Virus record (IMG/VR): IMGVR_UViG_3300031867_000045
Coordinates: 1 to 64,000 of that record
DNA: 64,000 nucleotides
Reading direction: 5' to 3' (one strand)
Origin: a virus
Translations under genes and position numbers: made by a program
Notes under the pieces: model-generated
Seen by the model: the letters and a program-made list of their open reading frames with translations, nothing else
Told to the model about the DNA's origin: nothing
Database searches by the model: none
Part shown: positions 1 to 45,812 of the stretch, one piece after another
Layout: each line of letters opens with the position of its first letter
Position numbering within the stretch: position 1 is the stretch's first letter

Positions 1-667
1 GTTCTTTTTCAGATTGGTTAAGAATGACATAATTATTTCTCCTTTTCTTATGTTTTTTTCAAGACGCTTCAAATTTTAGCAAATTTTCAAAGTAAATAAA
101 AACTATATTTGATTGCCATTTTCGGCAATCTATTTTTCTTTAGTAGAAGAATAGCAACTCTCGCAAGAATCACATTCCCATATTTGATTTAATCTAATAT
201 GTAATATCATTTTATTGTTTTGTTATTATTGCTGTATACCAGTAACATTTAACCGGCGCGTCTTATCACGACACTTCAATTATCGGGACAAGTGCAGGAT
301 TTTAACCTGCGTTTTCTCCTTTAAAGGGAGACGATCTAAACGCTGATCTAACTCGTCAATAATATTGCTGTCGATGTCGTATCATTCTATATGCTAAACG
401 CAAAATGCGTTAAAGCCAAAACTTCAAGACTCCATAAGGTATTAAAAGAGGCACTGTGCTACCGTTACACTACCATGCCGGAATCGAACCGAACCTGCGC
501 CTTGGAATATTTTATAACCAAAAATTGCTGTCGGAGTCTTATCAAATATTAAATTATCAAGACACATTGTTTGCGACCCTATCGGGTTTGGCGGACTTGA
601 ACCGCCTAAATATAACAGCCAAAAGTAATATTATTATCCATGCGTAAATTTGCTGTATGTGTCTTAT

Positions 668-1213
668 TTATTTACTGTAAATAAATTTTTCAAAATACTT
701 CGGTGGAACATATTTAGTCAAATATACTCCATTTTCTGATTTGAAAAATTTAATACCGTTTTTGTACATTAGCCTTGAATTAATGACAATTACCACGGGA
801 TTTCCGTGCCGCCTTCCTACATTAAATGCCGTCTTTTCATCGGAAGATAAATGAACATATAAACGGCTTTGCGGTTTGATACCTTGCTTTGAAATTGAAT
901 CATAAAATTTAGTGCAGGTTCCATGATACAATATAGAGGGCGGTTCAACCTCTTTCAATTCAACATCTACATTGATCGAATGACCTTGATTTGCCCTAAT
1001 CTTTGTTTTATCAGAATTAAATGAATATCTTTGTTTACTGTCCGACTTGACAATTTCTTCAAGTATAGACATATCTATACGATATTTCCTATTAATTCCC
1101 GCTATCAGTTGTTTTACGTCAGCCCAGCCGTGAGAGTCGAGTGTGATCCCTGCTTCTTCTGGCTTATGCCTCAGAATTAAACTGATATATTTACTTAAAT
1201 TAGTGTAAGACAT
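668..1213 (-). CDS. kptA: RNA 2'-phosphotransferase (Tpt1/KptA family)
   Basis: 181 aa, alignable along its whole length to E. coli KptA: FLSxxLRHKPE, GWAD, RANQGHS, LYHGT, RLYVHLS, ARxHGxPVV motifs all present. Confidence 0.8.
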   Translation of the reverse strand: MSYTNLSKYISLILRHKPEEAGITLDSHGWADVKQLIAGINRKYRIDMSILEEIVKSDSKQRYSFNSDKTKIRANQGHSINVDVELKEVEPPSILYHGTCTKFYDSISKQGIKPQSRLYVHLSSDEKTAFNVGRRHGNPVVIVINSRLMYKNGIKFFKSENGVYLTKYVPPKYFEKFIYSK

Positions 1214-1235: not shown

Positions 1236-1310
1236 TGGTGCGCGTAGTGGGAGTCGAACCCACCTAAACACGATTAAAAGTCGTGTGCATAGCCGCTTTG
1301 CTACACGCGC
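1236..1310 (-). tRNA. tRNA-Lys (anticodon TTT)
   Basis: 75-nt cloverleaf on minus strand; anticodon stem cacga/tcgtg, loop cTTTTaa; T-arm gtggg-ttcgact-cccac; CCA encoded. Confidence 0.75.
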
Positions 1311-1546: not shown

Positions 1547-1620
1547 TGGAGGGAGGTGCAAGATTTGAACTTGCCCGGACAGTGCCACAAACTGACGTGC
1601 TACCGCTACACTAACCACCC
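1547..1620 (-). tRNA. tRNA-His (anticodon GTG); position -1 is U, so no G-1 is encoded
   Basis: 74 nt; D-stem gtgt/gcac; anticodon loop ttGTGgc with G37; T-arm gcaag-ttcaaat-cttgc; acceptor gggtggt/acctccc; CCA encoded; base 5' of position 1 is U. Confidence 0.65.
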
Positions 1621-2437: not shown

Positions 2438-3211
2438 TTACTCACCAACAAAAATTAAATCATCAATATATTTCCGACCTTCGCCCTTGAAAACGGGAAT
2501 TTCATCATCAATCACCCACGAACTTCTGCCGGTAGTCTGATCGACTTTGCGAATACAACAACTGCCACGCTTATATTTTGTCGGATAACTATTCCAGTCA
2601 ATTCCCTTTTCATTGAGCAACATCTTGATGATCTCGCTCGTATTTTTACCGTGCATTTGCTTATCGGAAAAGTTTGCATGACCGACCATTTGAATCGAAT
2701 TTCTGATCGCGTCCTGCTGCCGCCAATAAATATTATTGGCTACTTCCTCTTTCGGAATGTTAAATACACGAGCATCAAACATAGCGCCCTTTGTTTCTGC
2801 TATTCCATGTGCGCAATCCCAGCCGATAACCCAACCGCGTGAGAACGCTTTATTAAAAGCTAACGTCGCCATGCTTGCCGCTACGCTTGCACATTTTTGA
2901 ATGTTGTAATCAAACCACGCGGTGGTATTAAGTTCTTTGTAGTCGATCAAAACTAATGTGATCTCGTCCGACTGAGTATAACCAAGAACGCAACCTTGAA
3001 TATTCTCACATAGATATCGCATAGTGTCTTGCATAGCCGCCGAAAGAACAGTATCAAATGGTCTTTGGAATCCGCGAGTGAAAGTATGAAATGCCTTACC
3101 GTCGATTCTGATAATGACCGGCGTTCTCGTAGTTAAATAATTCCGAGAAACATATTCATATTTTTTCATTCTCTTATCGAAGTCGCTGTATTTGCTCATA
3201 ACGTATTTCAA
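2438..3211 (-). CDS. Thg1-like tRNA-His guanylyltransferase
   Basis: 257 aa with Thg1 signature blocks: TPVIIRIDGKAFHTFTRGF, GYTQSDEITLVL, plus the downstream acidic/aromatic regions typical of Thg1/TLP. Confidence 0.7.
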   Translation of the reverse strand: MKYVMSKYSDFDKRMKKYEYVSRNYLTTRTPVIIRIDGKAFHTFTRGFQRPFDTVLSAAMQDTMRYLCENIQGCVLGYTQSDEITLVLIDYKELNTTAWFDYNIQKCASVAASMATLAFNKAFSRGWVIGWDCAHGIAETKGAMFDARVFNIPKEEVANNIYWRQQDAIRNSIQMVGHANFSDKQMHGKNTSEIIKMLLNEKGIDWNSYPTKYKRGSCCIRKVDQTTGRSSWVIDDEIPVFKGEGRKYIDDLIFVGE

Positions 3212-3422: not shown

Positions 3423-3497
3423 TGGCAGGGTGACAAAGACTCGAACTCTGACTTTCGGTTTTGGAGACCGACGTTCTACCAGTTAAACTACCACCCT
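3423..3497 (-). tRNA. tRNA-Trp (anticodon CCA)
   Basis: 75 nt; anticodon stem tcggt/accga, loop ctCCAaa; T-loop ttcgagt; CCA encoded. Confidence 0.7.
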
Positions 3498-3675
3498 GTA
3501 GTTGGGCGTTTTTGAGTTGTCGCCCGCAACTGTTTAGGTTAAAACAATATTGTAATTATCATGTTCGATGATTCCTCGCTGACCTATATCAGCAATTACT
3601 ACATCTTCGTTATCCGTTACGGTAAGAGGTAAAACATGATAATAAAACTATTCAGTTCAATGAGTTATGAACCGA

Positions 3676-3752
3676 TGGTGACTGCGGAGGGAATCGAACC
3701 CTCACTCTCCACCTTGAAGGGGTGGCGACTTATACCGTTCGTCTACGCAGCC
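3676..3752 (-). tRNA. tRNA-Glu (anticodon TTC), with an unusual C33
   Basis: 77 nt; anticodon stem ccacc/ggtgg, loop ccTTCaa; T-arm gaggg-ttcgatt-ccctc; CCA encoded. Confidence 0.5.
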
Positions 3753-3946
3753 ACATATGTCCTCGTCTTTCCGAGGTGCCACTTATTATTGGATTCCAAC
3801 CCCCAACGTTAATAAGAAACGCGGATGGTTTTTCTGGAATTAGAGGACATAACCATCAACCTCTTAACATTCTCTGCATACGGATTTGCACCGTTTCTCC
3901 ATCTTTTCTTCGATGGCGTTTTACCTTATAAACTATATAACAGAGA

Positions 3947-4022
3947 TGGTAGCTCTGGCGGGAGTCGAACCCAGCGTCACACGATTGAGAGCCGCGTATC
4001 TTAACCGCTTGACTACAGAGCC
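3947..4022 (-). tRNA. tRNA, anticodon tentatively CTC (Glu)
   Basis: 76 nt; D-arm gtca...agcggtta; anticodon stem cgcgg/tcgtg (two G-U pairs), loop ctCTCaa; T-loop ttcgact; ACCA encoded. Confidence 0.4.
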
Positions 4023-4239
4023 ATATAGATTATCCAACAACCGCCGTTAATTAGTGGCGACCCGATTTTTACGTTTATCGGAAAACGCTTTTTTGATCGG
4101 CAATTTATTAATCGCATAAGCCTTATAGCGATAATCTCTGTTGTTGGCTTTTGCCGTCTTTCCAGCTGTCGTCGATGGTTTCATTCCGAATCCAAGAATA
4201 AAACCAAGAGAAGAAATTTAAAATGAACTTAGCGGTTCA

Positions 4240-4692
4240 TGGTGGAGCTGGTGGGTGTCGAACCCACGTCCAAAATTCATACTCAAATTAACTATTTTTA
4301 CGCAATAGACTAATTTTCACTGAATCCGTATTAGTCAAACGCTGGGTTCATTCAAATAGGTCGCCAGTTACCTTTGGGAATGTAAAGGTTTATACTTTAC
4401 AATCGTCCACCACTTACTTTTTAGGAAAGCAAGAAAACCATCGCATGCGGCACCACTTGTTTTTAAGGCTCAAACAAGAAACCATCATTCAATATTCGTC
4501 CGACAAATTAACCGAATGACAGGTGTTTACCGGAATCTGGATCAAGCCGCAGTTCTCTTAGAGAGAGCAGCGACAAGAGCCGGATGAAATACAACAGTAG
4601 TATTGTCGTTTATTTTTGTTTTGCGCCGTAAGGTGGATCGCCAACCTGCGAAGTTAATTCTTTCAAAACCCTGTCGAATCCAATTCAGCCCC
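4240..4692 (-). ncRNA. ssrA: tmRNA (ssrA-like transfer-messenger RNA)
   Basis: 5' end GGGGCTGAATTGGATTCGACAG and 3' end GGACGTGGGTTCGACACCCACCAGCTCCACCA match the tmRNA tRNA-like domain (E. coli GGGGCUGAUUCUGGAUUCGACGGG and GGACGGGGGUUCAAAUCCCCCCGGCUCCACCA). An internal frame ends ...NDNTTVVFHPALVAALSKRTAA-TGA, which looks like a tag peptide. Confidence 0.65.
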
Positions 4693-4838
4693 ATATTATA
4701 GAAACTTGTTACCGACATTTGCGGAAAGAAAGTTGTTGGCAAGCGCACATTTTACTAAAACTTGCCGATTTGACGATGTGCTTTAATTTAGTTAATGGTA
4801 TATATCGATGCCAATGGGCGTACCGCCAAGAATGGCGG

Positions 4839-4933
4839 TGGCGGAGCGGGTGGGACTCGAACCCACACACCGAGATCGCTCGGCTACTTTCTGTGTAGCA
4901 AACAGATACCTTACCAATTAGGTTTACCGCTCC
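4839..4933 (-). tRNA. tRNA-Ser (anticodon GCT), class II with long variable arm
   Basis: 95 nt; anticodon stem tctgt/acaga, loop ttGCTac; long variable arm; T-arm gtggg-ttcgagt-cccac; CCA encoded. Confidence 0.7.
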
Positions 4934-5550
4934 ATTTCTATCGGTTTTAGACTCCATTTATATCCAAAAGCTGTTTTACTCAAACCTCTGGCACAATCAC
5001 TAATATGACCTGGTTTTTTACCAATAAATCTTGCAGCATCAGAATATGATTCAAATGTATGTAATAAGTTGCCGTTAAGATCATATTGATAAATAATCAT
5101 ATGATTTTCTAAATTACTATAATCTTTATTATTAATTGCGTAGTCAATAATATTTTCTGCCGTAAAGTCATCCACACAAAGAGGGATTGAAGCATTTACT
5201 TTTCTTCTACTAAATGCCAATGTCCTTGTAGAACCATTGCAAAATTCAATCGGTAAAAGATAACATTGATTATTGTAATATGTTCCAATCATATCAATTT
5301 CATTTTTCGTGTATTCATGTTTTACATTTTCTTTGCCGGAAGTTGTAATTGAATATGCTTTAATTTTGATTCCCGTTTCAACTTCTACGCAACTTTTTAT
5401 TTGAACTCTTAATAATAAGTTATTAACATCAAGTATAAAATCGTATTTGCAATCTTCTCCAATAGGAACACTCACATTATATCCAAGAGAAGTTAGATAT
5501 GCCTCACACAATAATTCTGTTGCTATCCCTTTTGCTTTACCATTAAACAA
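4924..5550 (-). CDS. homing-endonuclease-like protein (PD-(D/E)XK-like N-domain plus C-terminal NUMOD/AP2-like DNA-binding repeat)
   Basis: 208 aa. N-terminal motif ELLCEAYLTSLGY...DxxxDFIL..RVQIKS resembles a restriction-endonuclease-like core. C-terminal IYQYDLNGNLLHTFESYSDAARFIG..GxISDCARGLSKTAFGYKW is a typical homing-endonuclease DNA-binding module. The stop lies in the 10 nt overlap with the 5' acceptor strand of tRNA-Ser. Confidence 0.5.
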   Translation of the reverse strand: MFNGKAKGIATELLCEAYLTSLGYNVSVPIGEDCKYDFILDVNNLLLRVQIKSCVEVETGIKIKAYSITTSGKENVKHEYTKNEIDMIGTYYNNQCYLLPIEFCNGSTRTLAFSRRKVNASIPLCVDDFTAENIIDYAINNKDYSNLENHMIIYQYDLNGNLLHTFESYSDAARFIGKKPGHISDCARGLSKTAFGYKWSLKPIEMER

Positions 5551-5989
5551 ATTATTCGTTCACCTATTCGCCTATTCAATTTATGGAACTTTGCACTCCG
5601 CAAATATTTAATTTATCACGGAGTGCTTACCGCTCCATATATCCCGCGACTTCCGCCAAAACTATTATGTATCAAATGGTTGCCTTTTGCGAGCCGCGAG
5701 GAATATAGTTTGTTACCTTAGCTGTTATCTCTTTGAATGTTGCAATCAATCTCAGAAGTAGGTTGCTATCCTAATCGTTTATCATCAATTCCGTAGCCAA
5801 TTCGGAAAGATGGATAATCGAAGCCGTGAATCCCGACTCAACATATTGTTCATTTCGCTAAAATGTCACAAAACACGCTGCTTTAGTTGAAACAGTACCC
5901 CATTCTTTGCGGTAAAGAATATGAAAACCCCAATTTCCATAAAGTCTATCGGATAACCAAACTTTGCGGCTAAAGGCAGTTCGACCTTT

Positions 5990-6065
5990 TGGCTGGGTCA
6001 CTCGGAATCGAACCGAGAGCGGTGGGGTCAAAGCCCACTATGTTGACCGGTTACACCACAACCCA
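5990..6065 (-). tRNA. tRNA-Gln (anticodon TTG)
   Basis: 76 nt; anticodon stem gtggg/cccac, loop ctTTGac; T-arm ctcgg-ttcgatt-ccgag; CCA encoded. Confidence 0.6.
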
Positions 6066-6225
6066 TCGTGTGATCGAGCCACAGGACTCACACCTGCGGG
6101 AATGAAGGTTAGGGTTGACTGCGCACATCTCACCTAACAGCATTTATTATTAATCTCGTTCTTTTACTTTACTTCATTACTTCATAATCCGTGCTTTTAA
6201 GAGATTTTCTTTTTGGTCAAGATGT

Positions 6226-6296
6226 TGTGGGAGTCGAACCACACCCTTCCGCCCTTACGCGGGCAGCGTGCTATCCGCTACACTATCACTCTAATC
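6226..6296 (-). tRNA. atypical tRNA-like element (possible pseudogene), anticodon unresolved
   Basis: Canonical D-arm (tagtgtagcggatagcac) and T-loop (ggttcgactccc) are present, but I cannot fold a 7-nt anticodon loop or a matching acceptor stem. Confidence 0.3.
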
Positions 6297-6387
6297 TCTG
6301 CCACCCATCAACAAAATTGTACGGTTTCATTAATGGTTGTACGTTGTGGCACATTTCATATGGCTTTATACTCACTACTCGATCAAA

Positions 6388-6461
6388 TGGAGCGAATAAA
6401 GGGATTTGAACCCTCACAATCAGAATGGAAATCTGATGTGCTACCGTTACACCATATCCGC
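6388..6461 (-). tRNA. tRNA-Gly (anticodon TCC)
   Basis: 74 nt; anticodon stem tcaga/tctga, loop ttTCCat; T-loop ttcaaat; CCA encoded; acceptor gcggata/tattcgc. Confidence 0.7.
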
Positions 6462-6524: not shown

Positions 6525-8174
6525 TTAGGTGTTATCTGTATTTTCCGGCAAGGTGTCCTTTTTCTGAACGCCATCGGCAGGTACTACCTGAGTAGTAGAT
6601 AGCAGACCCTTTACAGGTTCGGCGATGCTACCCACCAATCCACGAAGTTCATCATTGATCGGCTTGCCGTTAAGGGCTTCATTCTGAACATTCAGAGTTT
6701 TCATCAGCGCAGGAATACTGGATAAGGTATCGACAAGAACGTTGCCGGAACCACTGCCCTGAGAACTTCCGCCGAAGTTGATAAACTCAGCCTTGCTACC
6801 AACTGAACCCATAAGTTCCGCGGCTTTGGTTGCAATCTGCACTTTACCCTCTGTTTCGATCTTCAACTTCTCGATCTCGAAGTTTACTTTCTCGTTAGAC
6901 GCTCTCGCTTCTGCAAGTGCGCGTTCACCTTCGGCTTGTGCCATAAGTTTCTGCTTTTCTACCTCAGCTTCCGCAAGACCTTTCTGCTTGATGACTTCCG
7001 CATCGGCAAGACCTTGCTGTTTTGCAACCTCAGCTTGTGCAAGACCTTTCTGCTTGGTAACGTCAGCTTCGGCATTACCTTTCTGCTTGATGACTTCCGC
7101 AGAAGCATTACCCTCTGTCTTAACCTTTTCCGCTTCTGCTTGTGCTGCGATCTTGATGGCATCCGCGTGGTTTCGTGATACCTGCACCTCTGCCTCTGCA
7201 CTGATAGTCTTTACATTCGCTTCCGCTTCGGCTTCGATGCGCTTCTTCTTCTTTTCTGATTCTGCTCTTGTGGAGATAACTTCCTGCTCCTTGATTGCTG
7301 CGAGATTTGCCTGTTCCTGCTTGACAACCTCAACACGACCCTTTTGCTGTTCTACCTCCTGCGCTCGAATGGTTCTCTGCAACTGACCGGCAACTTCGGC
7401 ATCGGCGTCTGCCTTATCAGTTTCAACCTTGAACGCAGCCATTTTCAGTTTATTATCTCTTTCTTTCTCAGCGATAGCCAACTCGGATTCCAATTCGGTC
7501 TGAGAAGCTGTACGCTCAGATTCAGCGTTTTGAGTACGGATAGCCTGATCTACCTTTGCTTTCTTGCTTTCGGCTTCACGGCGCTTATCCTGCATATCAA
7601 GTTCGGCAATGTTATCATAATAACCATTGTTGTCGTTGATGTCTTGGATGTTAAGGCTTACAAGTTCCATACCCATGTTGAGCATTTCATCCTGAATAAT
7701 ATCCTTAACCTTATTAGCAAATACCGCCTTTTCAGATAGTACACTTTCGGGGGTCATTGATGCTACTACATCACGAACACCACCCATAAGTGTCATTCTG
7801 GTGTCGCTGATAATCGCATCCTTTCCTCTTTCCTTAAAGGAAATGATTGCTTTCAGCAACGTTTCCGGATTTGAAGTATCGGGGCGAATCTGCGCCGTCC
7901 AGTCAATAGTAATCGGTACTGATGTTGCCGTCATAATCTCGTCACCATTTGCCGTTACCGTTAGCATTGACAAATCAAAATAATCATACTTGCGAATAAT
8001 CGGCATTACGAACGCACCGCCCGAAACATGAATTTGCGGTTTCTTGCCGCCCGTTACGATCAGTGCCTTGTCTACGCTTGCGACCTTATACATTGATTTT
8101 CCGATCAGGAAGATAGCCACAAGGATAACCAACGCAATTCCGACAGGAATGAGGATTGATAAATATTGTTCCAT
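6525..8174 (-). CDS. SPFH/band-7 (flotillin/YqiK-like) membrane protein with a long Ala/Glu/Lys-rich repeat tract
   Basis: 549 aa with an N-terminal TM helix and a band-7 core. It contains an 11-aa tandem repeat (KQKGLAEAEVx, about 6 copies, also visible as ~33-bp DNA repeats at 6950-7110) and a long coiled-coil. Confidence 0.65.
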   Translation of the reverse strand: MEQYLSILIPVGIALVILVAIFLIGKSMYKVASVDKALIVTGGKKPQIHVSGGAFVMPIIRKYDYFDLSMLTVTANGDEIMTATSVPITIDWTAQIRPDTSNPETLLKAIISFKERGKDAIISDTRMTLMGGVRDVVASMTPESVLSEKAVFANKVKDIIQDEMLNMGMELVSLNIQDINDNNGYYDNIAELDMQDKRREAESKKAKVDQAIRTQNAESERTASQTELESELAIAEKERDNKLKMAAFKVETDKADADAEVAGQLQRTIRAQEVEQQKGRVEVVKQEQANLAAIKEQEVISTRAESEKKKKRIEAEAEANVKTISAEAEVQVSRNHADAIKIAAQAEAEKVKTEGNASAEVIKQKGNAEADVTKQKGLAQAEVAKQQGLADAEVIKQKGLAEAEVEKQKLMAQAEGERALAEARASNEKVNFEIEKLKIETEGKVQIATKAAELMGSVGSKAEFINFGGSSQGSGSGNVLVDTLSSIPALMKTLNVQNEALNGKPINDELRGLVGSIAEPVKGLLSTTQVVPADGVQKKDTLPENTDNT

Positions 8175-8320: not shown

Positions 8321-9061
8321 TTAGAATGTATACCCGTCCATTAATCTCATTTTGAATTTATTTTTCTGATGGAGTGCATCAATCTTGTTCTTTACTGCCC
8401 CATCTTCGCAAATGCCTGTCCGAATATACCGATCAAGCGTTTCGTATGTAAAACCCAGGTTTTCCTCGTCAGTCTTTCCGCACAAACCATCTGATGGCTC
8501 TTTATCCATCAAATAGTCCGATAATCCGAGAGCATACCCAATGTCAATGACTTCACTTTTTGTAAACGGGGCAAGCGGCGACAAATCACCAACAGAATCT
8601 CCGTATCTCGTTGAATATCCGATATAGTCCTCAGATAAATTGCAAGTATTGACAACTCTACCGTTACTGCTCTGTGAAACAGCGTATAATGCAGCCATGC
8701 GGATTCTCGCAGGGAGATTGGTAGTTGTCTGACCGGAAATATTAAGAGTAGGCTCTTTTTCCATTCCGTCTAAAATTCCATCTACGGAATTGCCGATATT
8801 GATGGTAAAACTCTTAATTCTAAGAGTATTCACAAGCGTTTCAGCATATTTAATATCGTCCTGCTCGTGGTCTGGAAGTAAAACGCCGATGACGCGGTTT
8901 TCTCCCAAAGCCTTTACGCACAACGCGGCAACCACAGAGCTATCAATTCCGCCGGAAATTCCGACAATGGCTTTTCCAAAATTGCTATTCTTTCTGAACC
9001 AATCCTTAATCCATTCAGCACACTTTTCAGCATGATAATTTCCAAATCCAAATCTATTCAT
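8321..9061 (-). CDS. nadE: NH3-dependent NAD+ synthetase
   Basis: 246 aa; SGGIDS PP-loop motif and overall NadE-like sequence (GISGGIDSSVVAAL...). Confidence 0.75.
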   Translation of the reverse strand: MNRFGFGNYHAEKCAEWIKDWFRKNSNFGKAIVGISGGIDSSVVAALCVKALGENRVIGVLLPDHEQDDIKYAETLVNTLRIKSFTINIGNSVDGILDGMEKEPTLNISGQTTTNLPARIRMAALYAVSQSSNGRVVNTCNLSEDYIGYSTRYGDSVGDLSPLAPFTKSEVIDIGYALGLSDYLMDKEPSDGLCGKTDEENLGFTYETLDRYIRTGICEDGAVKNKIDALHQKNKFKMRLMDGYTF

Positions 9062-10530
9062 TAGAAATCACCGCCGTGCAAAGTTTTTCTGATTTCTTTC
9101 AGACTGGTTTCTTTCAGCATTTCACCATCACGGAAAATAGGCTTTAACATATTGCAAGGATCATTACTTGCTTCTTCCCAAGTCTTTTGATCTGTATAAG
9201 CAATCCCGCCATAATAATCCTCATAAACAAGACAACAACCCTTTTGAGAAGTCTTGAATCCGCCCTCTTTCGGGTCTTTGAAAATGGGAGTAGGCTTTCC
9301 GTCAATCTCACAATATGTCGCCTTAATACAAGAACTGAAAGTATCACGAGTAAACGGTTTTAGAATCCCATCTTCTTCAATGCACTGGAATGAGAACGAA
9401 CCGACACCGAGAGATACATTACAAGCCGCAAATCCGTTTTCTTTGAGAATTTCATAAATCTTCTCGCAACGCTGAACGGTAATTGAATCACCGTACAGAG
9501 CTTTCACACGAGGATCGAGGACTTTATATCCCTTGCTATTAATATAACCGCCGAACTGATCCCATAACTTGAATACCGTCTTTGTTACGACTTCCACGCA
9601 ATCGCCGGAATCTCCGCGCATAAGCATACAACCATTATGGTTCATAATTTCCTTTTTGAGTTTCGGAAGTACGTTATCAATTACATTCCAGTAATCATAA
9701 GAATCCAAAACGCAAGAAAATGATGTATTCGGGTAAATCTCCGTCAACAGTCTGCGGAGCAAAGTAATTTCATCACCGTCAACCGCAAAATTAGAACACA
9801 TTACAGAATGTTCGGTACTCGGAGCGCCAAATCCAACAGGTTCATTTTTGCAATCACAATTATAATTCTTTTCCAAATACGGAATTGCGGGAACCGTTGC
9901 AGTATTCAAGAATGAAAGCAACCAACCCGCAGCCGCCTTCGTTGCAGACTGTAAACATTCCTCACCGCGAAAATCAAAATCTCCCAACGCTCTTGCTCTC
10001 GGCATATCGTCGTCACAGGTTTCAGCATAATACTTGTTCACGATTTCACGATAAGTTGCGCCGACGGTGGCAGCCAACATGGGGTGCCACATTTCAGCCG
10101 AGATCAGCGATTCAAGCGACTGAGGAAGCCATGCAAAATCGGGATGGGTATTTGTGATTCCGAACATCGGAACGTGCATAGGCACTTTCGTTCCTTCGGG
10201 CAACGCCACAATTTCAATGGGTAAATATCCGAGATTATGCAGTTTCTTGATTTTGTTGATATTATATGTATCTTTTCCAAGAGTGGCGTCCATGATTCTT
10301 TGATATTCAACCAAAATCAGGTCGAGGGGCTTTTCAAAAAATTCTCTGTTGAAGTAATCAATCAGATATTCCTTAATAAATCCCTGCAATCCAAAGAATA
10401 CAACTTCATTCCAGCGCTTTACTCTGCTCATTCTCGGAGTAAAATAAGATACCGATTTTGTGATCTTTTCCGGCAACATTTCAGCGTGTACCGCCTTATA
10501 GTAGTCGATCAATAACATCGGATTCGTCAT
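9061..10530 (-). CDS. nadV: nicotinamide phosphoribosyltransferase (NadV/NAMPT)
   Basis: 489 aa; NAMPT-like blocks (DSYDYWNVI, LMRGDSGD, GVGSFSFQ...TRDTF) and the right length. Confidence 0.75.
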   Translation of the reverse strand: MTNPMLLIDYYKAVHAEMLPEKITKSVSYFTPRMSRVKRWNEVVFFGLQGFIKEYLIDYFNREFFEKPLDLILVEYQRIMDATLGKDTYNINKIKKLHNLGYLPIEIVALPEGTKVPMHVPMFGITNTHPDFAWLPQSLESLISAEMWHPMLAATVGATYREIVNKYYAETCDDDMPRARALGDFDFRGEECLQSATKAAAGWLLSFLNTATVPAIPYLEKNYNCDCKNEPVGFGAPSTEHSVMCSNFAVDGDEITLLRRLLTEIYPNTSFSCVLDSYDYWNVIDNVLPKLKKEIMNHNGCMLMRGDSGDCVEVVTKTVFKLWDQFGGYINSKGYKVLDPRVKALYGDSITVQRCEKIYEILKENGFAACNVSLGVGSFSFQCIEEDGILKPFTRDTFSSCIKATYCEIDGKPTPIFKDPKEGGFKTSQKGCCLVYEDYYGGIAYTDQKTWEEASNDPCNMLKPIFRDGEMLKETSLKEIRKTLHGGDF

Positions 10531-11393
10531 AGATTAAACACCTCGATTTTAGATGGCATTAAGTCAATATCTTTCGCATACTTCTGCGTACTCTTGACAA
10601 AAATGCTATCTGTAGTATATAGTTTCTCGATTAAATCTCCGTGTAACAATTCACCACGAAAAACGGTAAATTCACAATGAGTTACAAATAGATATATCTT
10701 ATCCGCGCCGAGTTCTTTTAACTTCTTCGCAGAATGTAAGAATGTTCCGCCTTTACTGCAAATATCATCAATGATTAAAACTATTTTGTTTTTAATCAAA
10801 TTTGTATCTCCGCAAACATCAAGCCCAAGAATATTTCCAGTTTCCCAATCTCGCCGTTTGATACCAAAAGCGTATGGTCGATTGATCTTGCCGGAATACC
10901 GTTTCATGGCACCTTCATCGGGAAAGAATATCGTTGGATTTGTTATGTAATTATCCTTGCAAACATTCTTAATTGCCTGTTCGATATAGGGAGTAGGTTC
11001 CAAAACGGTCAAATTATCGAACAACGCTTCACTCACAGAAGAATGAGGGTCTAAGACAACCACATTCAAGAATTTCAGCGCATTGATAAATTCCGCAAAA
11101 TATTTCAAAGTGAAAACATCCGATTTTCCCTTTACCCTATCCATTCTGGCGTTCGGAATATACGGCAAGAATAGCTCAACATCATAACCCAATCTTTGCA
11201 GGTGTTTTGTCAGAAATAAGATTGCTGCCATTTCACCGTCATTCTCGTAATGCCATGAAATAGTCACGGATTCTTGAATAGGCTCGACAGACTTCAACTC
11301 GGGTTTCAAGTGCAAAGTTCCATCGGGAAAATGATCGAGGACAACTTCGTTTCCATCAATTTTAATCATTCTGTTACCTCGTCGATCTGGCAA
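10527..11393 (-). CDS. prs: ribose-phosphate pyrophosphokinase (PRPP synthetase)
   Basis: 288 aa; PRPP-binding loop IVLIIDDICSKGGTF and PRPP synthetase N-domain. Confidence 0.7.
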   Translation of the reverse strand: MPDRRGNRMIKIDGNEVVLDHFPDGTLHLKPELKSVEPIQESVTISWHYENDGEMAAILFLTKHLQRLGYDVELFLPYIPNARMDRVKGKSDVFTLKYFAEFINALKFLNVVVLDPHSSVSEALFDNLTVLEPTPYIEQAIKNVCKDNYITNPTIFFPDEGAMKRYSGKINRPYAFGIKRRDWETGNILGLDVCGDTNLIKNKIVLIIDDICSKGGTFLHSAKKLKELGADKIYLFVTHCEFTVFRGELLHGDLIEKLYTTDSIFVKSTQKYAKDIDLMPSKIEVFNL

Positions 11394-11929
11394 GAGTGCA
11401 TGACCATCTTAGCAGCGTTATGTAATTCGGGAGTCACACCCGCACAACAAGAGAAGTCACAAGCGATTTGGATTTCCGGCGCGGCTGTCTTGATAACCAG
11501 TGCGTTAGTCACTACACAAATATCGGTACACAATCCAACAAGTTCAACGTAATCGAATCCGCCCTGAACAACAGCCTGAGCCAATGCGAAAGAGCCGAAA
11601 GACTCCTTCAAGAAAACTCTTTTATCATCGTTGTAAGTGAATTTTTCGTTCTTCTCGGCAAGACGATCTCTGAAAGCCTTTTCAATGGTTGGATTCAACT
11701 GCCAACCCTCGGTATGTAAGATACAGTGTTTCACGGGCAAGTGTTTGCCCTCATTAGAATCGAGGTATGAGTCCTCAAAATGTGTGTCATATGTAGCCGC
11801 GATCTCACCGTCGAATGTTTTGATTTTTTCTGCAACCTTATCAACGATTGCCATAGCTTCGGGAGTTCCGAGAGAGCCGTCAATAAAATCGTTTTGACAG
11901 TCAACCACGACAAGTAAACGTTTTTCCAT
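11366..11929 (-). CDS. pncA: isochorismatase-family nicotinamidase (PncA-like)
   Basis: 187 aa; VVVDCQNDF N-terminal motif and catalytic-cysteine block GLCTDICV typical of PncA. Confidence 0.65.
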   Translation of the reverse strand: MEKRLLVVVDCQNDFIDGSLGTPEAMAIVDKVAEKIKTFDGEIAATYDTHFEDSYLDSNEGKHLPVKHCILHTEGWQLNPTIEKAFRDRLAEKNEKFTYNDDKRVFLKESFGSFALAQAVVQGGFDYVELVGLCTDICVVTNALVIKTAAPEIQIACDFSCCAGVTPELHNAAKMVMHSCQIDEVTE

Positions 11930-28264: not shown

Positions 28265-28771
28265 TCATAACTCACTGGAATAATCAACCTTAGCGCCGTC
28301 AAATCCGCCGTATGTACCCGTGATTTCAAGGCTGCCGACAAGCTCTGAATTGATCCTATTGAGCGGAATAAAATCTAATTTGCCGGTATTGACGGGCTTG
28401 CCGATCTTGCTAACAGAAATTGTGATATGAGGATTTGAAATAGTAAAAAATTCTTTTGCTAAATCGTTGGATTCTGTAGTGTGTAAACAAACCGATACGC
28501 CCTGATTGTTTTCGTCGCAAGCATATCCAATGATATTGAATGTTGCTTTTTTGCCGAAAAGCGCGGGATCGATCTTGCTCGGTCTGAACGCAAAGGTGAT
28601 ATGCGGATTATCAATCACGCGGTAAAGCCTTGTTTTTGTGATCTTATCAATAATGTTTTGTAATTCTTCTTGATCGAAAAATACACCTGTATAAATATAT
28701 GCCATGTTATATCTCCTATCTGATAATATAGCAATTACGTCTTGCATTATATTGCAAAACAACTTGCCCAT
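28265..28771 (-). CDS. 2H phosphoesterase family protein (LigT/CPDase/Acb1-like)
   Basis: 168 aa with two H-x-T-x motifs at the expected spacing: NPHITFAF and NPHITISV. Confidence 0.55.
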   Translation of the reverse strand: MGKLFCNIMQDVIAILSDRRYNMAYIYTGVFFDQEELQNIIDKITKTRLYRVIDNPHITFAFRPSKIDPALFGKKATFNIIGYACDENNQGVSVCLHTTESNDLAKEFFTISNPHITISVSKIGKPVNTGKLDFIPLNRINSELVGSLEITGTYGGFDGAKVDYSSEL

Positions 28772-44162: not shown

Positions 44163-44239
44163 GCGGATATGGTGTTCAACGGTTAGCACGTTGGCTTGCC
44201 AAGTCAAAAGTACGAGTTCAAATCTCGTTATTCGCTCCA
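44163..44239 (+). tRNA. tRNA-Gly (anticodon GCC)
   Basis: 77 nt; anticodon loop ttGCCaa; T-loop ttcaaat; CCA encoded; acceptor identical to the minus-strand tRNA-Gly(TCC). Confidence 0.65.
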
Positions 44240-44311
44240 TATAAGACACACGCAGCAATTATTCAGAATAATTTTTGCGGTTAAAAAATATTCATGGTGT
44301 CTTGTTCTTAT

Positions 44312-44388
44312 TGCGGGATGGAGCAGATGGTCAGCTCGTCTGCCTCATAAGCAGAAGGTCGTGGGTTCGAGTCCCACTCCCGCAACCA
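44312..44388 (+). tRNA. tRNA-Met or tRNA-Ile2 (anticodon CAT)
   Basis: 77 nt; D-stem gagc/gctc; anticodon stem tctgc/gcaga, loop ctCATaa; T-arm gtggg-ttcgagt-cccac; U1-A72. Confidence 0.6.
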
Positions 44389-44404
44389 CTAATTTAATCA
44401 ATAT

Positions 44405-44489
44405 GGGAGAATCGTATAGCGGCAATTACGGCAGACTGTAAATCTGTTCCCGTAAGGGTTCGATGGTTCGAGTCCATCTTCTCCCACCA
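44405..44489 (+). tRNA. tRNA-Tyr (anticodon GTA), long variable arm
   Basis: 85 nt; anticodon stem gcaga/tctgt, loop ctGTAaa; long variable arm; T-arm gatgg-ttcgagt-ccatc; CCA encoded. Confidence 0.65.
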
Positions 44490-44492
44490 TAT

Positions 44493-44569
44493 GCTTGTGT
44501 AGCTTACGAGGTCGGAGCATCGGTCTGAAAAACCGAAGGATGGTGGTTCGATACCACCCTCAAGCACCA
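44493..44569 (+). tRNA. tRNA-Phe (anticodon GAA)
   Basis: 77 nt; anticodon stem tcggt/accga, loop ctGAAaa; T-arm ggtgg-ttcgata-ccacc; CCA encoded. Confidence 0.6.
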
Positions 44570-44572
44570 TAT

Positions 44573-44648
44573 GGTTCCGTAGTTCAAATGGATAAAACAC
44601 CGCCCTGTCACGGCGGAGTTATGGGTTCAATCCCCGTCGGAATCGCCA
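44573..44648 (+). tRNA. tRNA-Asp (anticodon GTC)
   Basis: 76 nt; anticodon stem ccgcc/ggcgg, loop ctGTCac; T-loop ttcaatc; CCA encoded. Confidence 0.65.
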
Positions 44649-44651
44649 AAT

Positions 44652-44726
44652 GTAGGTGTAAGTCAACGGTAGACGGCTTGCTTTGGGAGCAAGTAGCTGG
44701 GGGTTCGAGTCCTCTCACCTGCACCA
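44652..44726 (+). tRNA. tRNA-Pro (anticodon TGG)
   Basis: 75 nt; anticodon stem cttgc/gcaag, loop ttTGGga; T-loop ttcgagt; CCA encoded. Confidence 0.6.
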
Positions 44727-44776
44727 AACAGAGTTCGGCACGCCTCTGAATATGCGTACCATGCCGAGCCATATAT

Positions 44777-44852
44777 TCCCACGTAGTTCAGTTGATAGAA
44801 CTCTCGACTGTTAATCGAGTAGTCGCAAGTTTGAGTCTTGCCGTGGGAGCCA
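44777..44852 (+). tRNA. tRNA-Asn (anticodon GTT)
   Basis: 76 nt; anticodon stem ctcga/tcgag, loop ctGTTaa; CCA encoded. Confidence 0.55.
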
Positions 44853-44855
44853 AAC

Positions 44856-44930
44856 GGGGGATTAGTTTAATAGGTAAAATCCTCGCCTTGCACGCGAGGG
44901 TCAGCGGTTCGAGTCCGCTATCCTCCACCA
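44856..44930 (+). tRNA. tRNA-Ala (anticodon TGC)
   Basis: 75 nt; anticodon stem ctcgc/gcgag, loop ctTGCac; T-arm agcgg-ttcgagt-ccgct; CCA encoded. Confidence 0.65.
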
Positions 44931-45794: not shown

Positions 45795-45812
45795 TACCCG
45801 CAAGGGTAATAT

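What the first reader, a model, noticed from the sequence alone, without database searches (positions are those of the whole stretch)
668..1213. Tpt1/KptA RNA 2'-phosphotransferase in a phage that also encodes a 2H phosphoesterase, a tmRNA and more than 20 tRNAs
The 181-aa ORF aligns over its full length to E. coli KptA. Tpt1 removes the 2'-phosphate left by fungal/plant-type tRNA ligation and uses NAD+ as co-substrate. In this window it co-occurs with a 2H (LigT/CPDase-like) phosphoesterase at 28265-28771, a Thg1-like enzyme, a tmRNA, two tRNA clusters and an NAD+ salvage module. Together these look like an RNA-end healing system, plausibly a counter-measure to host anticodon nucleases such as PrrC, RloC, colicin-like enzymes or PARIS-type tRNA cleavage. 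No ligase or polynucleotide kinase was recognised, so the pathway is either incomplete, uses host enzymes, or uses one of the unassigned ORFs.
Basis: partly seen in the sequence, partly recalled or inferred. Interest (0 to 1): 0.7.

Follow-up and report, generated by a model that had tools for sequence, protein, structure and literature searches.

The report
Phage RNA 2'-phosphotransferase in tRNA island
A large gut phage carries an intact copy of the NAD-dependent enzyme that strips 2'-phosphates from RNA, set among its own tRNAs and Ro60/Y-RNA-like elements; such phage RNA-maintenance genes are already described, so it is a good example, not a new kind of system.

Summary
The 181-aa ORF at 668-1213 (-) is a genuine Tpt1/KptA. 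It matches Pfam PF01885 at 8e-50 over its full length and passes the NCBIfam equivalog cut-off. It matches solved Runella Tpt1 at 3e-47. The catalytic tetrad is present (R15, H16, R62, R117), and the gene is under strong purifying selection. The co-occurring parts are also real: a Thg1-like enzyme, a tmRNA, two tRNA clusters, an NAD module and a 2H protein.

The "RNA-end healing system" reading is only partly supported. I found no RNA ligase or polynucleotide kinase in about 80 kb of this phage, nor in 20 kb of a relative. The NAD module has the NARP1 anti-defence signature. The Thg1-like gene is better explained by the phage tRNA-His, which lacks an encoded G-1. The 2H gene lies 27 kb away; it is CNPase-like rather than Acb1-like, and two distant relatives are fused to Pnkp-type kinases.

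KptA's conserved neighbours are tRNA-His, tRNA-Lys, a DUF2828 (Ro60-like, vWA) gene and a family of Y-RNA-like cassettes. The "suppressor tRNA" is one such cassette.

Phage KptA, 2H, TROVE and Thg1 as NAD-linked RNA repair is a published hypothesis (Iyer et al. 2021, 2022). This is a new member of a known kind.

The parts
668..1213 (-). Tpt1/KptA RNA 2'-phosphotransferase, 181 aa, catalytic tetrad R15-H16-R62-R117
   Evidence: Pfam PF01885, 7.9e-50. NCBIfam NF002014 passed. PDB 7kw8, 3e-47. Tetrad invariant in alignment A2. pN 0.11 against pS 0.75 versus the 82%-identical allele.
1236..1310 (-). tRNA-Lys(UUU), ends 22 nt upstream of the KptA start codon
   Evidence: ARAGORN and Rfam. The tRNA-Lys/KptA adjacency is kept in L009.
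1547..1620 (-). tRNA-His(GUG) with T at -1 and U73, so no encoded G-1:C73
   Evidence: The same features are seen in the L009 tRNA-His.
555..667 (-). Y-RNA-like cassette A. It begins at the KptA stop codon and has a closing stem AAGACACAU/AUGUGUCUU, a T-arm-like hairpin and a closed hairpin.
422..542 (-). Y-RNA-like cassette B: closing stem AAGACUCC/GGAGUCUU, with a T-arm-like element before a D-arm-like element (permuted tRNA-like layout, as in YrlA)
   Evidence: The L009 homologue gives a weak Rfam YrlA match, 27.6 bits.
268..382 (-). Cassette C: closing stem ACGACAU/GUGUCGU around a complete cloverleaf (285-357) that ARAGORN calls tRNA-Stop(tta)
   Evidence: The homologous cloverleaf in L005 has a 6-nt loop UUAAAA, which argues against a decoding suppressor.
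1..30 (-). First 10 codons of a 510-aa DUF2828+DUF7788 protein (helical N-terminal half plus a vWA domain with the DxSxS MIDAS motif; Ro60-like). The gene runs off the window start.
   Evidence: L002 11184-12716, precomputed Pfam. MIDAS residues D304, S306 and S308 are invariant. Weak TROVE PDB hit, E=0.5. 710 phage records hold homologues.
2438..3211 (-). Thg1-like 3'-5' nucleotidyltransferase
   Evidence: PF04446, 5.2e-30. 164 phage records hold homologues. Syntenic in L009.
3423..6461 (-). tRNA cluster (Trp, Glu x2, Ser, Gln, Gly) with an embedded tmRNA (4240-4692) and a PD-(D/E)XK+NUMOD1 homing-endonuclease-like gene (4924-5550)
6525..8174 (-). SPFH/Band-7 (flotillin-like) protein, 549 aa
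   Evidence: PF01145, 1.4e-20. NCBIfam FloT, below cut-off.
8321..11929 (-). NAD module: PncA-like isochorismatase (11366-11929), Prs-like/Adps-like (10527-11393), NAMPT-like/Namat-like (9061-10530) and NadE (8321-9061)
   Evidence: The NARP1 signature is taken from bioRxiv 10.1101/2024.02.11.579819.
28265..28705 (-). 2H phosphoesterase, 146 aa from Met23, CNPase-like, with motifs H35-x-T37 and H93-x-T95
44163..45886 (+). Second tRNA cluster (Gly, Met, Tyr, Phe, Asp, Pro, Asn, Ala, Thr) with a GIY-YIG endonuclease gene (45039-45794)

Best explanation
Shown: the ORF encodes a catalytically competent-looking NAD+-dependent RNA 2'-phosphotransferase of the Tpt1/KptA family. It is an accessory gene of an SPbeta-like phage of gut Clostridia; related contigs are about 160-171 kb.

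Established chemistry of the family: a 2'-phosphate on RNA attacks NAD+, releasing nicotinamide. [quoted passage not shown]

Shown: the gene lies inside a same-strand array of tRNAs and Y-RNA-like cassettes. It is preceded by tRNA-His and tRNA-Lys and followed by the cassettes and a Ro60-like DUF2828/vWA gene. This neighbourhood is kept in diverged relatives.

Inferred: the phage uses KptA to keep tRNA or tRNA-like RNA usable during infection by erasing 2'-phosphates. These could arise when the 2',3'-cyclic ends left by host anticodon nucleases or toxins are opened by a CNPase-type 2H enzyme. The phage encodes one such enzyme, at 28265-28705. Removal could happen before resealing (terminal 2'-PO4) or after it (junction 2'-PO4). 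The sealing ligase would be a host enzyme or a phage gene not yet seen. The NARP1-type module keeps NAD+ available but is primarily an independent counter-defence.
For: Enzyme identity and intact active site. The essentiality of the four residues is taken from PMC6097658 and PMC12678800.

Purifying selection: pN 0.11 against saturated pS 0.75.

Embedding in the RNA island, with no terminator-like site on the gene strand in 1-3500.

Conserved neighbourhood:
- KptA plus DUF2828 in L005, whose KptA is 82% identical.
- KptA, tRNA-His/Arg/Lys, a YrlA-like RNA, DUF2828, Thg1 and DHH in the 171-kb contig L009.

2H protein:
- Family fusions to AAA_33 P-loop kinases; the P0307 kinase domain best matches the C. 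thermocellum Pnkp kinase domain.

Biochemical precedent: C. thermocellum Tpt1 removes terminal 2'- and 3'-phosphates (PMC6573784).

Published comparative genomics places phage KptA, 2H, TROVE and Thg1 in RNA repair (PMC7824862; PMC9503650).

KptA recurs beside NAD salvage genes in another phage contig, with NadR and PnuC in L004.
Against: - No RNA ligase or polynucleotide kinase was found by Pfam at E<=0.01, by a motif scan, or by tblastn with the phiCD211 RtcB. The sequence covered was the window, 16 kb of flanks and 20 kb of a syntenic relative.
- The 2H gene is 27 kb away, and its homologues show no KptA linkage.
- The closest solved relative, Runella Tpt1, is inept on terminal 2'-phosphates.
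- No bacterial pathway that makes internal RNA 2'-phosphates is known (PMC6097658).
- In other SPbeta-like phages KptA lies among unrelated small ORFs: phiCD211 and L022.
- A TerL-related 176-kb phage lacks the whole island.
- No substrate was, or could be, identified here.
Confidence: 0.45

Rival explanations
1. KptA acts mainly as an ADP-ribosyltransferase. It caps 5'-monophosphate ends of RNA or DNA with ADP-ribose, for example to protect processed phage tRNA or Y-like RNA 5' ends from 5'-3' decay, or to block host nucleic-acid ends.
For: - 5'-phospho-ADP-ribosylation by bacterial and archaeal Tpt1/KptA is documented; the same four residues serve both reactions (PMC12678800; PMC6182162 is listed).
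- The gene sits in an array whose processing by RNase P creates many 5'-monophosphate ends.
- A beta-CASP/RNase J-like gene is present at 46112-47554.
Against: - The capping reaction is slow and is a side activity in the enzymes studied.
- No Macro or NADAR 'eraser' domain, and no reader domain, was found in the window.
- Nothing in the sequence separates this activity from 2'-phosphate removal.
Confidence: 0.15
2. KptA belongs to the NAD-centred arms race rather than to RNA repair. It would act on small 2'-phosphorylated nucleotides such as NADP(H), or feed or clear ADP-ribose derivatives alongside the NARP1-like module and phage phosphatases.
For: - Tpt1 transfers the 2'-phosphate of NADP(H) to NAD+ (PMC10622864, listed; discussed).
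- NAD genes lie near KptA in three phage contexts: 7-11 kb away in the window, and NadR with PnuC about 3 kb away in L004. DUF2828 loci in other phages also lie next to NAD salvage genes.
- ADPR-1''-phosphate is now a known battleground (bioRxiv 10.64898/2026.01.28.702374).
Against: - The reaction consumes one NAD+ for each phosphate removed, so it cannot raise NAD+ levels.
- KptA's immediate and conserved neighbours are RNAs and an RNA-binding-type protein, not NAD enzymes.
- NARP1 operons are described without KptA.
Confidence: 0.1
3. KptA erases a regulatory or defensive 2'-phosphate mark placed on tRNA by a host RNA 2'-kinase, analogous to the archaeal U47 2'-phosphate that Tpt1 removes.
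For: - tRNA U47 2'-phosphorylation and its removal by Tpt1 are described (cited in PMC12678800).
- KptA homologues also sit in bacterial mobile or defence-island-like contexts, with SLFN/AlbA_2-HATPase, PIN and DUF3800 genes.
Against: - No such kinase or mark is known in Clostridia, and none was looked for here.
- This rests on analogy alone.
Confidence: 0.05
4. KptA finishes protein-catalysed splicing of a phage tRNA. The 125-nt tRNA-like gene just outside the window, with about 52 extra nt in its anticodon arm, would be an intron-bearing pre-tRNA cut and rejoined by a fungal/plant-type pathway.
For: - The Rfam tRNA model scores 51 bits, with 63 nt where 11 are expected.
- The element is conserved in L009, with a compensatory acceptor stem: GGCGGUG/CACCGCC against UCGGGGC/GCCCCGA.
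- A CNPase-type 2H enzyme and KptA are both present.
Against: - No splicing endonuclease, kinase or ligase was found.
- No bulge-helix-bulge motif or sensible mature anticodon could be derived.
- The insert carries the same AAGAC..GUCUUG and CAGCAAUUUU motifs as the Y-like cassettes. This points to a stable tRNA-like ncRNA in a permuted arrangement.
Confidence: 0.03
5. KptA is a recently captured host gene with no role in the phage life cycle.
For: - It is 63-70% identical to a very large set of homologues, 7998 with E<=1e-20, including Oscillospiraceae MAG proteins.
- The island is absent from a TerL-related phage.
Against: - Strong purifying selection between phage alleles.
- The gene is retained, with conserved neighbours, in phages whose other island proteins are only 65-73% identical.
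Confidence: 0.05

Closest known systems
Bacterial Tpt1/KptA: E. coli KptA, Runella slithyformis Tpt1 and Clostridium thermocellum Tpt1
   Same: Same single-domain size (about 180 aa). Full-length homology, with Runella at 3e-47 and C. thermocellum at 1.5e-36. Same Arg-His-Arg-Arg tetrad. [quoted passage not shown]
   Different: This copy is encoded by a phage and flanked by tRNAs and Y-RNA-like cassettes. Whether it handles terminal phosphates (C. thermocellum type) or only internal ones (Runella type) is unknown.
KptA genes of other phages: C. difficile phiCD211/phiCDIF1296T family, Bacillus phage C30-3, and Erwinia, Dickeya, Klebsiella and Serratia phages of about 260-275 kb
   Same: Ninety-eight phage records encode a homologue. 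The phiCD211 family is 62-64% identical, and its terminase is also related at about 34%.
   Different: In phiCD211 KptA lies among small ORFs, and an RtcB ligase is 12 kb away. Here no ligase was seen, and the neighbours are tRNAs and a Ro60-like module.
Phage RNA-repair and NAD network described by Iyer, Burroughs, Anantharaman and Aravind (Viruses 2021, 2022), and the RNA-repair 'syntax' of Burroughs and Aravind (2016; abstract recalled from memory, not fetched)
   Same: Same parts list: tRNAs, KptA, 2H, ROT/TROVE protein, Thg1 and NAD salvage. SPFH/Band-7 is also on the 2016 list as I recall it.
   Different: Those surveys place KptA alongside phage RNA ligases, polynucleotide kinases and phosphatases. 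Here the ligase and kinase were not found in the roughly half of the genome that I could see. The phage is SPbeta-like, not a jumbo phage.
Fungal/plant tRNA ligase pathway (Trl1/AtRNL ligase-kinase-CPD, plus Tpt1)
   Same: Two of its four activities have candidates here. The CNPase/CPD-type 2H enzyme would open the cyclic phosphate to a 2'-phosphate, and Tpt1 would remove it. Relatives of the 2H protein occur fused to P-loop kinases; one of them best matches the C. thermocellum Pnkp kinase domain.
   Different: No ligase and no kinase in this phage sequence. The 2H and KptA genes are 27 kb apart.
Ro60 (Rsr) with Y RNA/YrlA modules: the Salmonella rsr-yrlBA-rtcBA operon, and Ro60 with Y-like RNAs in mycobacteriophages, Bacillus phage G and Thermus phage phiLo
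   Same: A helical-plus-vWA(MIDAS) protein gene flanked by several short RNAs. Each RNA has a conserved closing stem and a tRNA-like interior.
   Different: The protein is DUF2828/DUF7788, and its sequence similarity to solved TROVE proteins is not significant. The RNAs do not reach the Rfam YrlA threshold. The partner enzyme next door is KptA rather than RtcB/RtcA.
NARP1 (Adps plus Namat) NAD+ reconstitution pathway of phages such as Bas63, SPbetaL1 and FADO
   Same: Same two-gene order and Pfam signature: PF14572, then PF18127+PF04095. The Prs-like protein scores far below the genuine Prs cut-offs.
   Different: Here the pair is flanked by an isochorismatase/PncA-like gene and NadE. Activity was not tested.

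Membership tests
Tpt1/KptA RNA 2'-phosphotransferase (PF01885; NCBIfam NF002014) | Full-length match to the family model above the curated cut-off | tested here: met
   PF01885, 169.8 bits against 26. NF002014 equivalog, 244.4 bits against 239.
Tpt1/KptA RNA 2'-phosphotransferase (PF01885; NCBIfam NF002014) | Arg-His-Arg-Arg catalytic tetrad (Runella R16, H17, R64, R119) | tested here: met
   R15, H16, R62 and R117, from the alignment to 7kw8. Invariant in alignment A2.
Tpt1/KptA RNA 2'-phosphotransferase (PF01885; NCBIfam NF002014) | [quoted passage not shown] | not testable with these tools
   Needs an enzyme assay or yeast tpt1-delta complementation.
2H phosphoesterase superfamily | Two H-x-T/S motifs on an internally duplicated fold | tested here: met
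2H phosphoesterase superfamily | Match to a curated 2H sequence model (LigT, 2_5_RNA_ligase2, CPDase, CNPase) | tested here: not met
   No Pfam, PHROG or NCBIfam hit for the window protein. No 2H Pfam family was reported for 20 multi-domain family members at E<=0.001.
Acb1 anti-CBASS phosphodiesterase | Specific structural or sequence similarity to Acb1 beyond the shared 2H fold | tested here: not met
Fungal/plant-type healing-and-sealing pathway (CPD, 5'-kinase, ligase, Tpt1) | All four activities are encoded | tested here: not met
   CPD-like and Tpt1 candidates are present. No P-loop polynucleotide kinase and no KxDG or RtcB ligase in the window, the flanks or the syntenic L009. About half of the genome was not seen.
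NARP1 (Adps plus Namat) | Adjacent Prs-like (PF14572) and NAMPT-like (PF18127+PF04095) genes in that order | tested here: met
   10527-11393, then 9061-10530 on the - strand, overlapping by 4 nt. Definition.
NARP1 (Adps plus Namat) | ADPR pyrophosphorylation followed by nicotinamide transfer to give NAD+ | not testable with these tools
   Biochemistry is needed.
Thg1/TLP 3'-5' nucleotidyltransferase | Match to the Thg1 catalytic domain model | tested here: met
   PF04446, 104.5 bits against 29.2.
Ro60/TROVE with Y RNA | TROVE (HEAT-repeat ring) domain | tested here: inconclusive
   Only E=0.5 to the phage phiLo Ro60 structures 9l5y and 9kop. A six-sequence profile found no TROVE hit.
Ro60/TROVE with Y RNA | C-terminal vWA domain with a MIDAS motif | tested here: met
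   The DxSxS motif (D304, S306, S308) is invariant in 6 diverse homologues. This is read directly from the sequence.
Ro60/TROVE with Y RNA | Adjacent ncRNAs whose 5' and 3' ends form a conserved stem around a variable, tRNA-like interior | tested here: met
   Thirteen cassettes were scored. 88% of cells are paired, and 6 of 9 pairs carry compensatory changes. The covariation score is 0.419 against 0.144 in shuffles, reached in 0 of 500. The Rfam YrlA score is only 27.6 bits against a threshold of 69.

The most novel reading that the evidence does not exclude
KptA, the CNPase-type 2H enzyme and the Ro60-like protein with its Y-RNA-like cassettes could form one phage ribonucleoprotein machine. 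It would run a 2'-phosphate (fungal/plant-style) RNA repair or splicing route in bacteria, using an unrecognised ligase. Possible substrates include cleaved tRNAs or the conserved 125-nt tRNA-like RNA with an insertion in its anticodon arm. That would give bacterial-world Tpt1 its long-missing natural substrate.
Probability: 0.07. Interest if true: 0.85.

Novelty: new member of a known kind. Interest (0 to 1): 0.4.

Why it matters
The physiological substrate of Tpt1/KptA in bacteria and their viruses is a long-standing open question. The enzyme is widespread, yet no bacterial route to RNA 2'-phosphates is known.

This locus does not answer that question. It does offer a compact, conserved and testable setting. 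One phage lineage carries an intact KptA wedged between tRNA-His/tRNA-Lys and a Ro60-like gene with its cassette RNAs. The same lineage also carries a CNPase-type 2H enzyme and an NAD+-rebuilding module. If KptA deletion or 2'-phosphate tagging in this phage revealed its RNA targets, the result would carry over to the thousands of KptA genes in gut Firmicutes and their phages.

As it stands, the finding adds an example to a published hypothesis. It also corrects three details:
- The NAD module is NARP1-like.
- The Thg1-like gene probably serves the phage's own tRNA-His.
- The 'suppressor tRNA' is probably a Y-like RNA module.

Tried and rejected
1. Near-identity DNA search of window 1-8000 against phage records found nothing.
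2. KptA single-protein scan of IMG/VR found no relative.
3. The 400-aa metallophosphoesterase at 48205-49407 as a Pnkp-like kinase-phosphatase: it has no P-loop, its N-terminus is helical, and it travels with the head module in MT835469. Rejected.
4. The 333-aa orphan ORF at 12688-13689, inside the island, as a ligase: no KxDG motif and no Pfam, PHROG or NCBIfam hit. There is no support.
5. tblastn with the phiCD211 RtcB against the window and the loci fetched up to (L001-L008) found nothing in the window or in this phage's own contigs; the only hit outside phiCD211 itself was a 49-aa C-terminal remnant in L004. An IMG/VR scan did not return the contig related to L009, but that scan finds only close relatives.
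The homologue search led to the syntenic L009 instead.
7. The 176-kb phage MT835469 (TerL 50% identical) as a whole-genome proxy: it lacks KptA, Thg1, DUF2828, the NAD module, the 2H gene and RtcB. It is uninformative, and shows that the island is accessory.
8. The ~600-aa proteins that carry this 2H domain as compact Trl1-like ligase-kinase-CPD enzymes: the 'KxDG' is not conserved, they have hydrophobic segments, and the three scanned (P0286, P0298, P0306) have no Pfam hit. Rejected.
9. The 'ochre suppressor tRNA' at 285-357: the cloverleaf is real (64.5 bits), but it sits inside a cassette with a covarying closing stem. Its L005 homologue has a 6-nt loop. Probably not a decoding tRNA.
10. 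The 125-nt 'interrupted tRNA' as an intron-bearing gene: no bulge-helix-bulge motif and no sensible anticodon, and the insert carries cassette motifs. Left as a low-probability reading.
11. A profile of six DUF2828 proteins against PDB gave no significant TROVE hit.
12. RNAalifold on MAFFT-aligned whole cassettes recovered only the T-arm, because the 3' ends were misaligned. The closing stem was then tested on an anchor-based alignment.
Full report
**1. The observation**

The ORF at 668-1213 on the minus strand encodes 181 aa from an ATG preceded by AAAGGTGGA.
- It matches Pfam PF01885 (Tpt1/KptA) at E=7.9e-50 over essentially the whole model.
- It passes the NCBIfam equivalog cut-off for RNA 2'-phosphotransferase, NF002014, with 244.4 bits against 239.
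- Against solved structures the best matches are Runella slithyformis Tpt1 (7kw8, 3e-47) and Clostridium thermocellum Tpt1 (6e3a, 1.5e-36).
- The four residues essential in Runella Tpt1 are Arg16, His17, Arg64 and Arg119 (PMC6097658; the tetrad is also described in PMC12678800). By the alignment they correspond to R15, H16, R62 and R117. All four are invariant in an alignment of 11 phage and bacterial homologues.
- Against the 82%-identical allele on contig L005, non-synonymous differences are 0.11 per site and synonymous ones 0.75 per site, which is saturated. The gene is therefore under purifying selection.

**2.

- Thg1-like protein, 2438-3211: PF04446 at 5e-30.
- tmRNA, 4240-4692 (-): Rfam, 90.7 bits.
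- tRNAs: ARAGORN and Rfam agree on 19 calls, ten on the minus arm (285-12684) and nine on the plus arm (44163-45886). That is fewer than '>20' within the window. Six more tRNAs lie within 5 kb beyond the window start.
- NAD module, 8321-11929. It comprises an isochorismatase/PncA-like gene, a Prs-like gene, a NAMPT-like gene and NadE.

**3. What kind of genome this is**

- The plus arm encodes a large terminase, a portal protein and SPbeta-type head and tail proteins (YonD, YonB, YomX, YomV, YomU families).
- The nearest deposited terminases belong to a 176-kb human-gut phage (50%), then to Lysinibacillus and Thomasclavelia phages, the C. difficile phiCD211 family and SPbeta-like Bacillus phages.
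- The window is 100% identical to two contigs of one ENA sample.
- Related contigs are 160-171 kb.
- KptA homologues at 63-70% identity are extremely numerous in gut metagenomes and include Oscillospiraceae MAG proteins.
- The host is therefore most likely a gut clostridial lineage. This is an inference.

**4. Search for the missing ligase and kinase**

- I scanned every window ORF of 120 aa or more against Pfam at E<=0.01. None is an RtcB, an ATP-dependent RNA ligase or a polynucleotide kinase.
- A motif scan for KxDG and Walker A found nothing convincing.
- tblastn with the RtcB of phiCD211 found nothing in the window or its flanks.
- The precomputed Pfam calls for 9.3 kb beyond the window start and 6.7 kb beyond its end add only DUF2828/DUF7788, a zinc ribbon, a DHH/DHHA1 protein, an integrase and a tape-measure domain (PhageMin_Tail).
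- In the syntenic 171-kb relative L009, the 20 kb from KptA onward hold phosphoesterases, a DSP-type phosphatase and an NAD-dependent DNA ligase. There is no RNA ligase.
- Roughly half of a genome of about 170 kb was not visible to me. Absence is therefore shown for the island and its surroundings, not for the whole phage.
- The C. difficile phage phiCD211 carries both kptA and an RtcB-type 'tRNA splicing ligase' 12 kb apart. Co-occurrence with a ligase does exist in a more distant SPbeta-related phage.

**5. What is actually linked to KptA**

tRNA-Lys ends 22 nt before the KptA start, and tRNA-His lies 330 nt further upstream. The KptA stop codon overlaps the first of three structured RNA cassettes. 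These fill the 640 nt up to the start of a 510-aa DUF2828+DUF7788 gene that runs off the window. No terminator-like site lies on this strand in 1-3500.

This neighbourhood is conserved:
- L005 (KptA 82% identical) has KptA, then cassettes, then DUF2828.
- L009 (KptA 66% identical) has KptA, then tRNA-His/Arg/Lys, cassettes, DUF2828, tRNAs, Thg1, a 255-aa protein 70% identical to its L002 counterpart, and DHH.

The DUF2828 family:
- It is present in 710 phage records, in some of which it is annotated as an RNA-binding protein.
- In Enterococcus phage EF1 its locus again sits among tRNAs and next to NAD salvage genes. In Stenotrophomonas phage DLP_6 it lies beside NAD genes, with one tRNA nearby.
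- Its C-terminal half carries an invariant DxSxS MIDAS motif.
- The only PDB sequences it touches are the Ro60 homologue of Thermus phage phiLo, at a non-significant E=0.5. A small profile did not improve this.
- I therefore call it Ro60-like by architecture and context. It is not a demonstrated TROVE protein.

**6. The cassettes**

- Each copy begins AUAAG(A/G)C, then 3-5 variable bases, then (A/G)CAGCAA. Each ends with the complement of the variable bases followed by G(U/C)CUUG.
- I anchored thirteen copies from three phages on the conserved motifs. Of all cells, 88% form standard pairs, and six of nine stem positions show compensatory changes. The covariation score is 0.419, against 0.144 in shuffles (reached in 0 of 500) and at most 0.17 when the partner columns are slid.
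- The interiors vary. Some hold a T-arm plus a closed hairpin. Some hold a T-arm followed by a D-arm, a permuted tRNA-like layout. The L009 copy of that type gives a full-length but sub-threshold Rfam YrlA match, 27.6 bits. Others hold a plain hairpin or a whole cloverleaf.
- The whole-cloverleaf version in the window is what ARAGORN calls tRNA-Stop(tta) at 285-357. Its L005 homologue has a 6-nt loop, so it is probably not a suppressor tRNA.
- Phage Ro60 homologues with adjacent Y-like RNAs are known in mycobacteriophages, Bacillus phage G, CcrColossus and Thermus phage phiLo (PMC12135203; PMC4201824, listed). This is a variant of a known arrangement.

**7. Re-reading the other parts**

*NAD module.* The Prs-like gene (PF14572) is followed by, and overlaps, the NAMPT-like gene (PF18127+PF04095). 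This is exactly the signature by which NARP1 (Adps plus Namat) was defined, including in SPbeta-like and FADO phages. The Prs-like protein scores far below every genuine Prs cut-off. Its best-supported role is to rebuild NAD+ after host NADase defences. Supplying KptA, and the NAD-dependent DNA ligase seen in the relative, would be a by-product.

*Thg1.* The phage tRNA-His has T at -1 and U73 in both the window and L009. It therefore lacks the genome-encoded G-1:C73 that bacterial tRNA-His normally has; this is established knowledge of tRNA-His identity. A Thg1-type enzyme that adds G-1 after transcription is the simplest explanation for the gene.

*2H.* A profile search finds 934 family representatives, mostly stand-alone proteins of 125-160 aa. 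Two carry AAA_33 P-loop kinase domains, in both domain orders. The kinase of P0307 best matches the C. thermocellum Pnkp kinase domain (4jst and 4gp7, 1.7e-10) and Pnkp1. Kinase plus CNPase-type 2H is the end-healing architecture of CNPase and of the fungal/plant tRNA ligase. This favours an RNA-end role over an Acb1-type role, though only by two fusions out of many. Neighbourhoods of 2H homologues are uninformative.

**8. Mechanism**

*Shown.* An intact Tpt1-family active site. A conserved position in a same-strand tRNA, Y-like RNA and Ro60-like island. The presence in the same phage of a CNPase-type 2H enzyme and a NARP1-type module.

*Established chemistry of the family.* The RNA 2'-phosphate attacks NAD+. 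[quoted passage not shown]

*Inferred.*
- The phage uses this to clear 2'-phosphates from tRNA or tRNA-like RNA.
- These most plausibly arise when 2',3'-cyclic ends made by host anticodon nucleases or toxins are opened by a 2H enzyme.
- Clearing could happen at the terminus before resealing or at the junction after it.
- C. thermocellum Tpt1 can remove terminal 2'- and 3'-phosphates, but Runella Tpt1 cannot. The step cannot be assigned from sequence.
- The ligase is unknown.

I put 0.45 on this reading. The rivals are 5'-phosphate ADP-ribose capping (0.15), a role on NADP(H) or ADP-ribose metabolites (0.10), erasure of a tRNA 2'-phosphate mark (0.05), protein-catalysed tRNA splicing (0.03) and a functionless passenger gene (0.05, contradicted by selection and synteny).

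**9. Comparison with what is known, and novelty**

- KptA homologues are present in 98 phage records.
- Two comparative-genomics papers already propose that phage KptA works with 2H, Macro, RNA ligases, TROVE proteins, Thg1 and NAD salvage in NAD-dependent RNA repair against host tRNA cleavage (PMC7824862; PMC9503650).
- Specific to this locus: the SPbeta-like gut-phage setting; the tight, conserved KptA / tRNA-His / tRNA-Lys / cassette / DUF2828 arrangement; the CNPase-like 2H family; and the apparent lack of a nearby ligase.
- None of this is a new kind of system. I rate it a new member of a known kind, with interest 0.4.
- The most novel reading not excluded is a 2'-phosphate repair or splicing route built around the Ro60-like RNP, which would give bacterial-world Tpt1 a natural substrate. 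I give it a probability of about 0.07.

Noticed in passing
window 268-667 (-); also L002 13629-13836, L009 1077-1504 and 4263-4547, L005 695-1274: A family of 70-135-nt cassette RNAs. The 5' end reads AUAAG(A/G)C-NNNN-(A/G)CAGCAA and the 3' end NNNN-G(U/C)CUUG, forming a covarying closing stem around variable, mostly tRNA-like interiors. The cassettes flank the DUF2828 (Ro60-like) gene on both sides. They are probably Y-RNA-like partners of that protein.
   Followed up: partly
window 285-357 (-): ARAGORN calls this tRNA-Stop, anticodon UUA (Rfam tRNA, 64.5 bits). It lies inside one of the cassettes, and its homologue in L005 has a 6-nt loop. It is probably a tRNA-like module rather than an ochre suppressor.
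   Followed up: partly
L002 13844-13968 (about 2.6 kb beyond window position 1, same strand as KptA); L009 4553-4680: A 125-nt tRNA-like gene with intact acceptor, D and T arms but about 52 extra nt in the anticodon arm. It is conserved in a diverged phage, with a compensatory acceptor stem. The insert carries the cassette motifs. It may be a permuted Y-like RNA or, less likely, an intron-bearing tRNA.
   Followed up: partly
window 1547-1620 (-) and 2438-3211 (-); L009 848-921: The phage tRNA-His has T at -1 and a U73 discriminator in two phages, so G-1 is not encoded. A Thg1-like gene is co-encoded in both. This suggests post-transcriptional G-1 addition, as in eukaryotes.
   Followed up: partly
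window 8321-11929 (-): A NARP1-signature pair (Adps-like, then Namat-like) flanked by an isochorismatase/PncA-like gene and NadE. The flanking genes hint at a deamidated (nicotinate) variant or an extension of the NAD+ reconstitution route.
   Followed up: partly
window 22051-22202 (-): A SAM riboswitch (Rfam RF00162, 49.6 bits against a threshold of 44.4) in a phage, upstream of a 103-aa ORF of unknown function (21700-22011). A weak S-AdoMet lyase hit occurs at 37227-37622.
   Followed up: no
window 13757-14125 (-) and 15054-16025 (-): A phage-encoded MazF/PemK-type endoribonuclease toxin (PF02452, 5.5e-21), which would itself make 2',3'-cyclic phosphate ends, and a tyrosine integrase.
   Followed up: no
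window 4240-4692 (-): The tmRNA match spans 453 nt for a 374-position model, and ARAGORN did not call it. It may carry an insertion. A PD-(D/E)XK+NUMOD1 endonuclease gene lies next to it, at 4924-5550.
   Followed up: no
window 46112-49407 (+): A beta-CASP/RMMBL (RNase J- or CPSF-like) nuclease, a ClpP-family protease and a 400-aa metallophosphoesterase lie between the second tRNA cluster and the terminase. All three are conserved in the 176-kb gut phage MT835469.
   Followed up: partly
window 6525-8174 (-): A 549-aa SPFH/Band-7 flotillin-like protein sits inside the tRNA island. As I recall the abstract (not fetched here), Burroughs and Aravind (2016) proposed SPFH modules as RNA-repair scaffolds paired with a tRNA-like RNA.
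   Followed up: no
homologues of window 28265-28705 (P0126-P0140); P0286, P0306 and others: Many homologues of the 2H protein carry a conserved C-terminal extension of about 75 aa rich in Cys and Trp. Others are the C-terminal domain of ~600-aa proteins with hydrophobic segments and no known domains.
   Followed up: partly
L004 4662-4820, 5816-7637 and 9637-10212: Another phage-like contig has KptA (70% identical by BLASTP) about 2-4 kb from NadR-like and PnuC genes. It also has a 52-aa ORF matching only the C-terminal 49 residues of RtcB, which looks like a ligase remnant.
   Followed up: no
L019 4924-11099: A bacterial KptA (67% identical) sits in an integrative or defence-island-like context, with SLFN/AlbA_2-HATPase, PIN, DUF3800, GNAT and integrase genes.
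   Followed up: no
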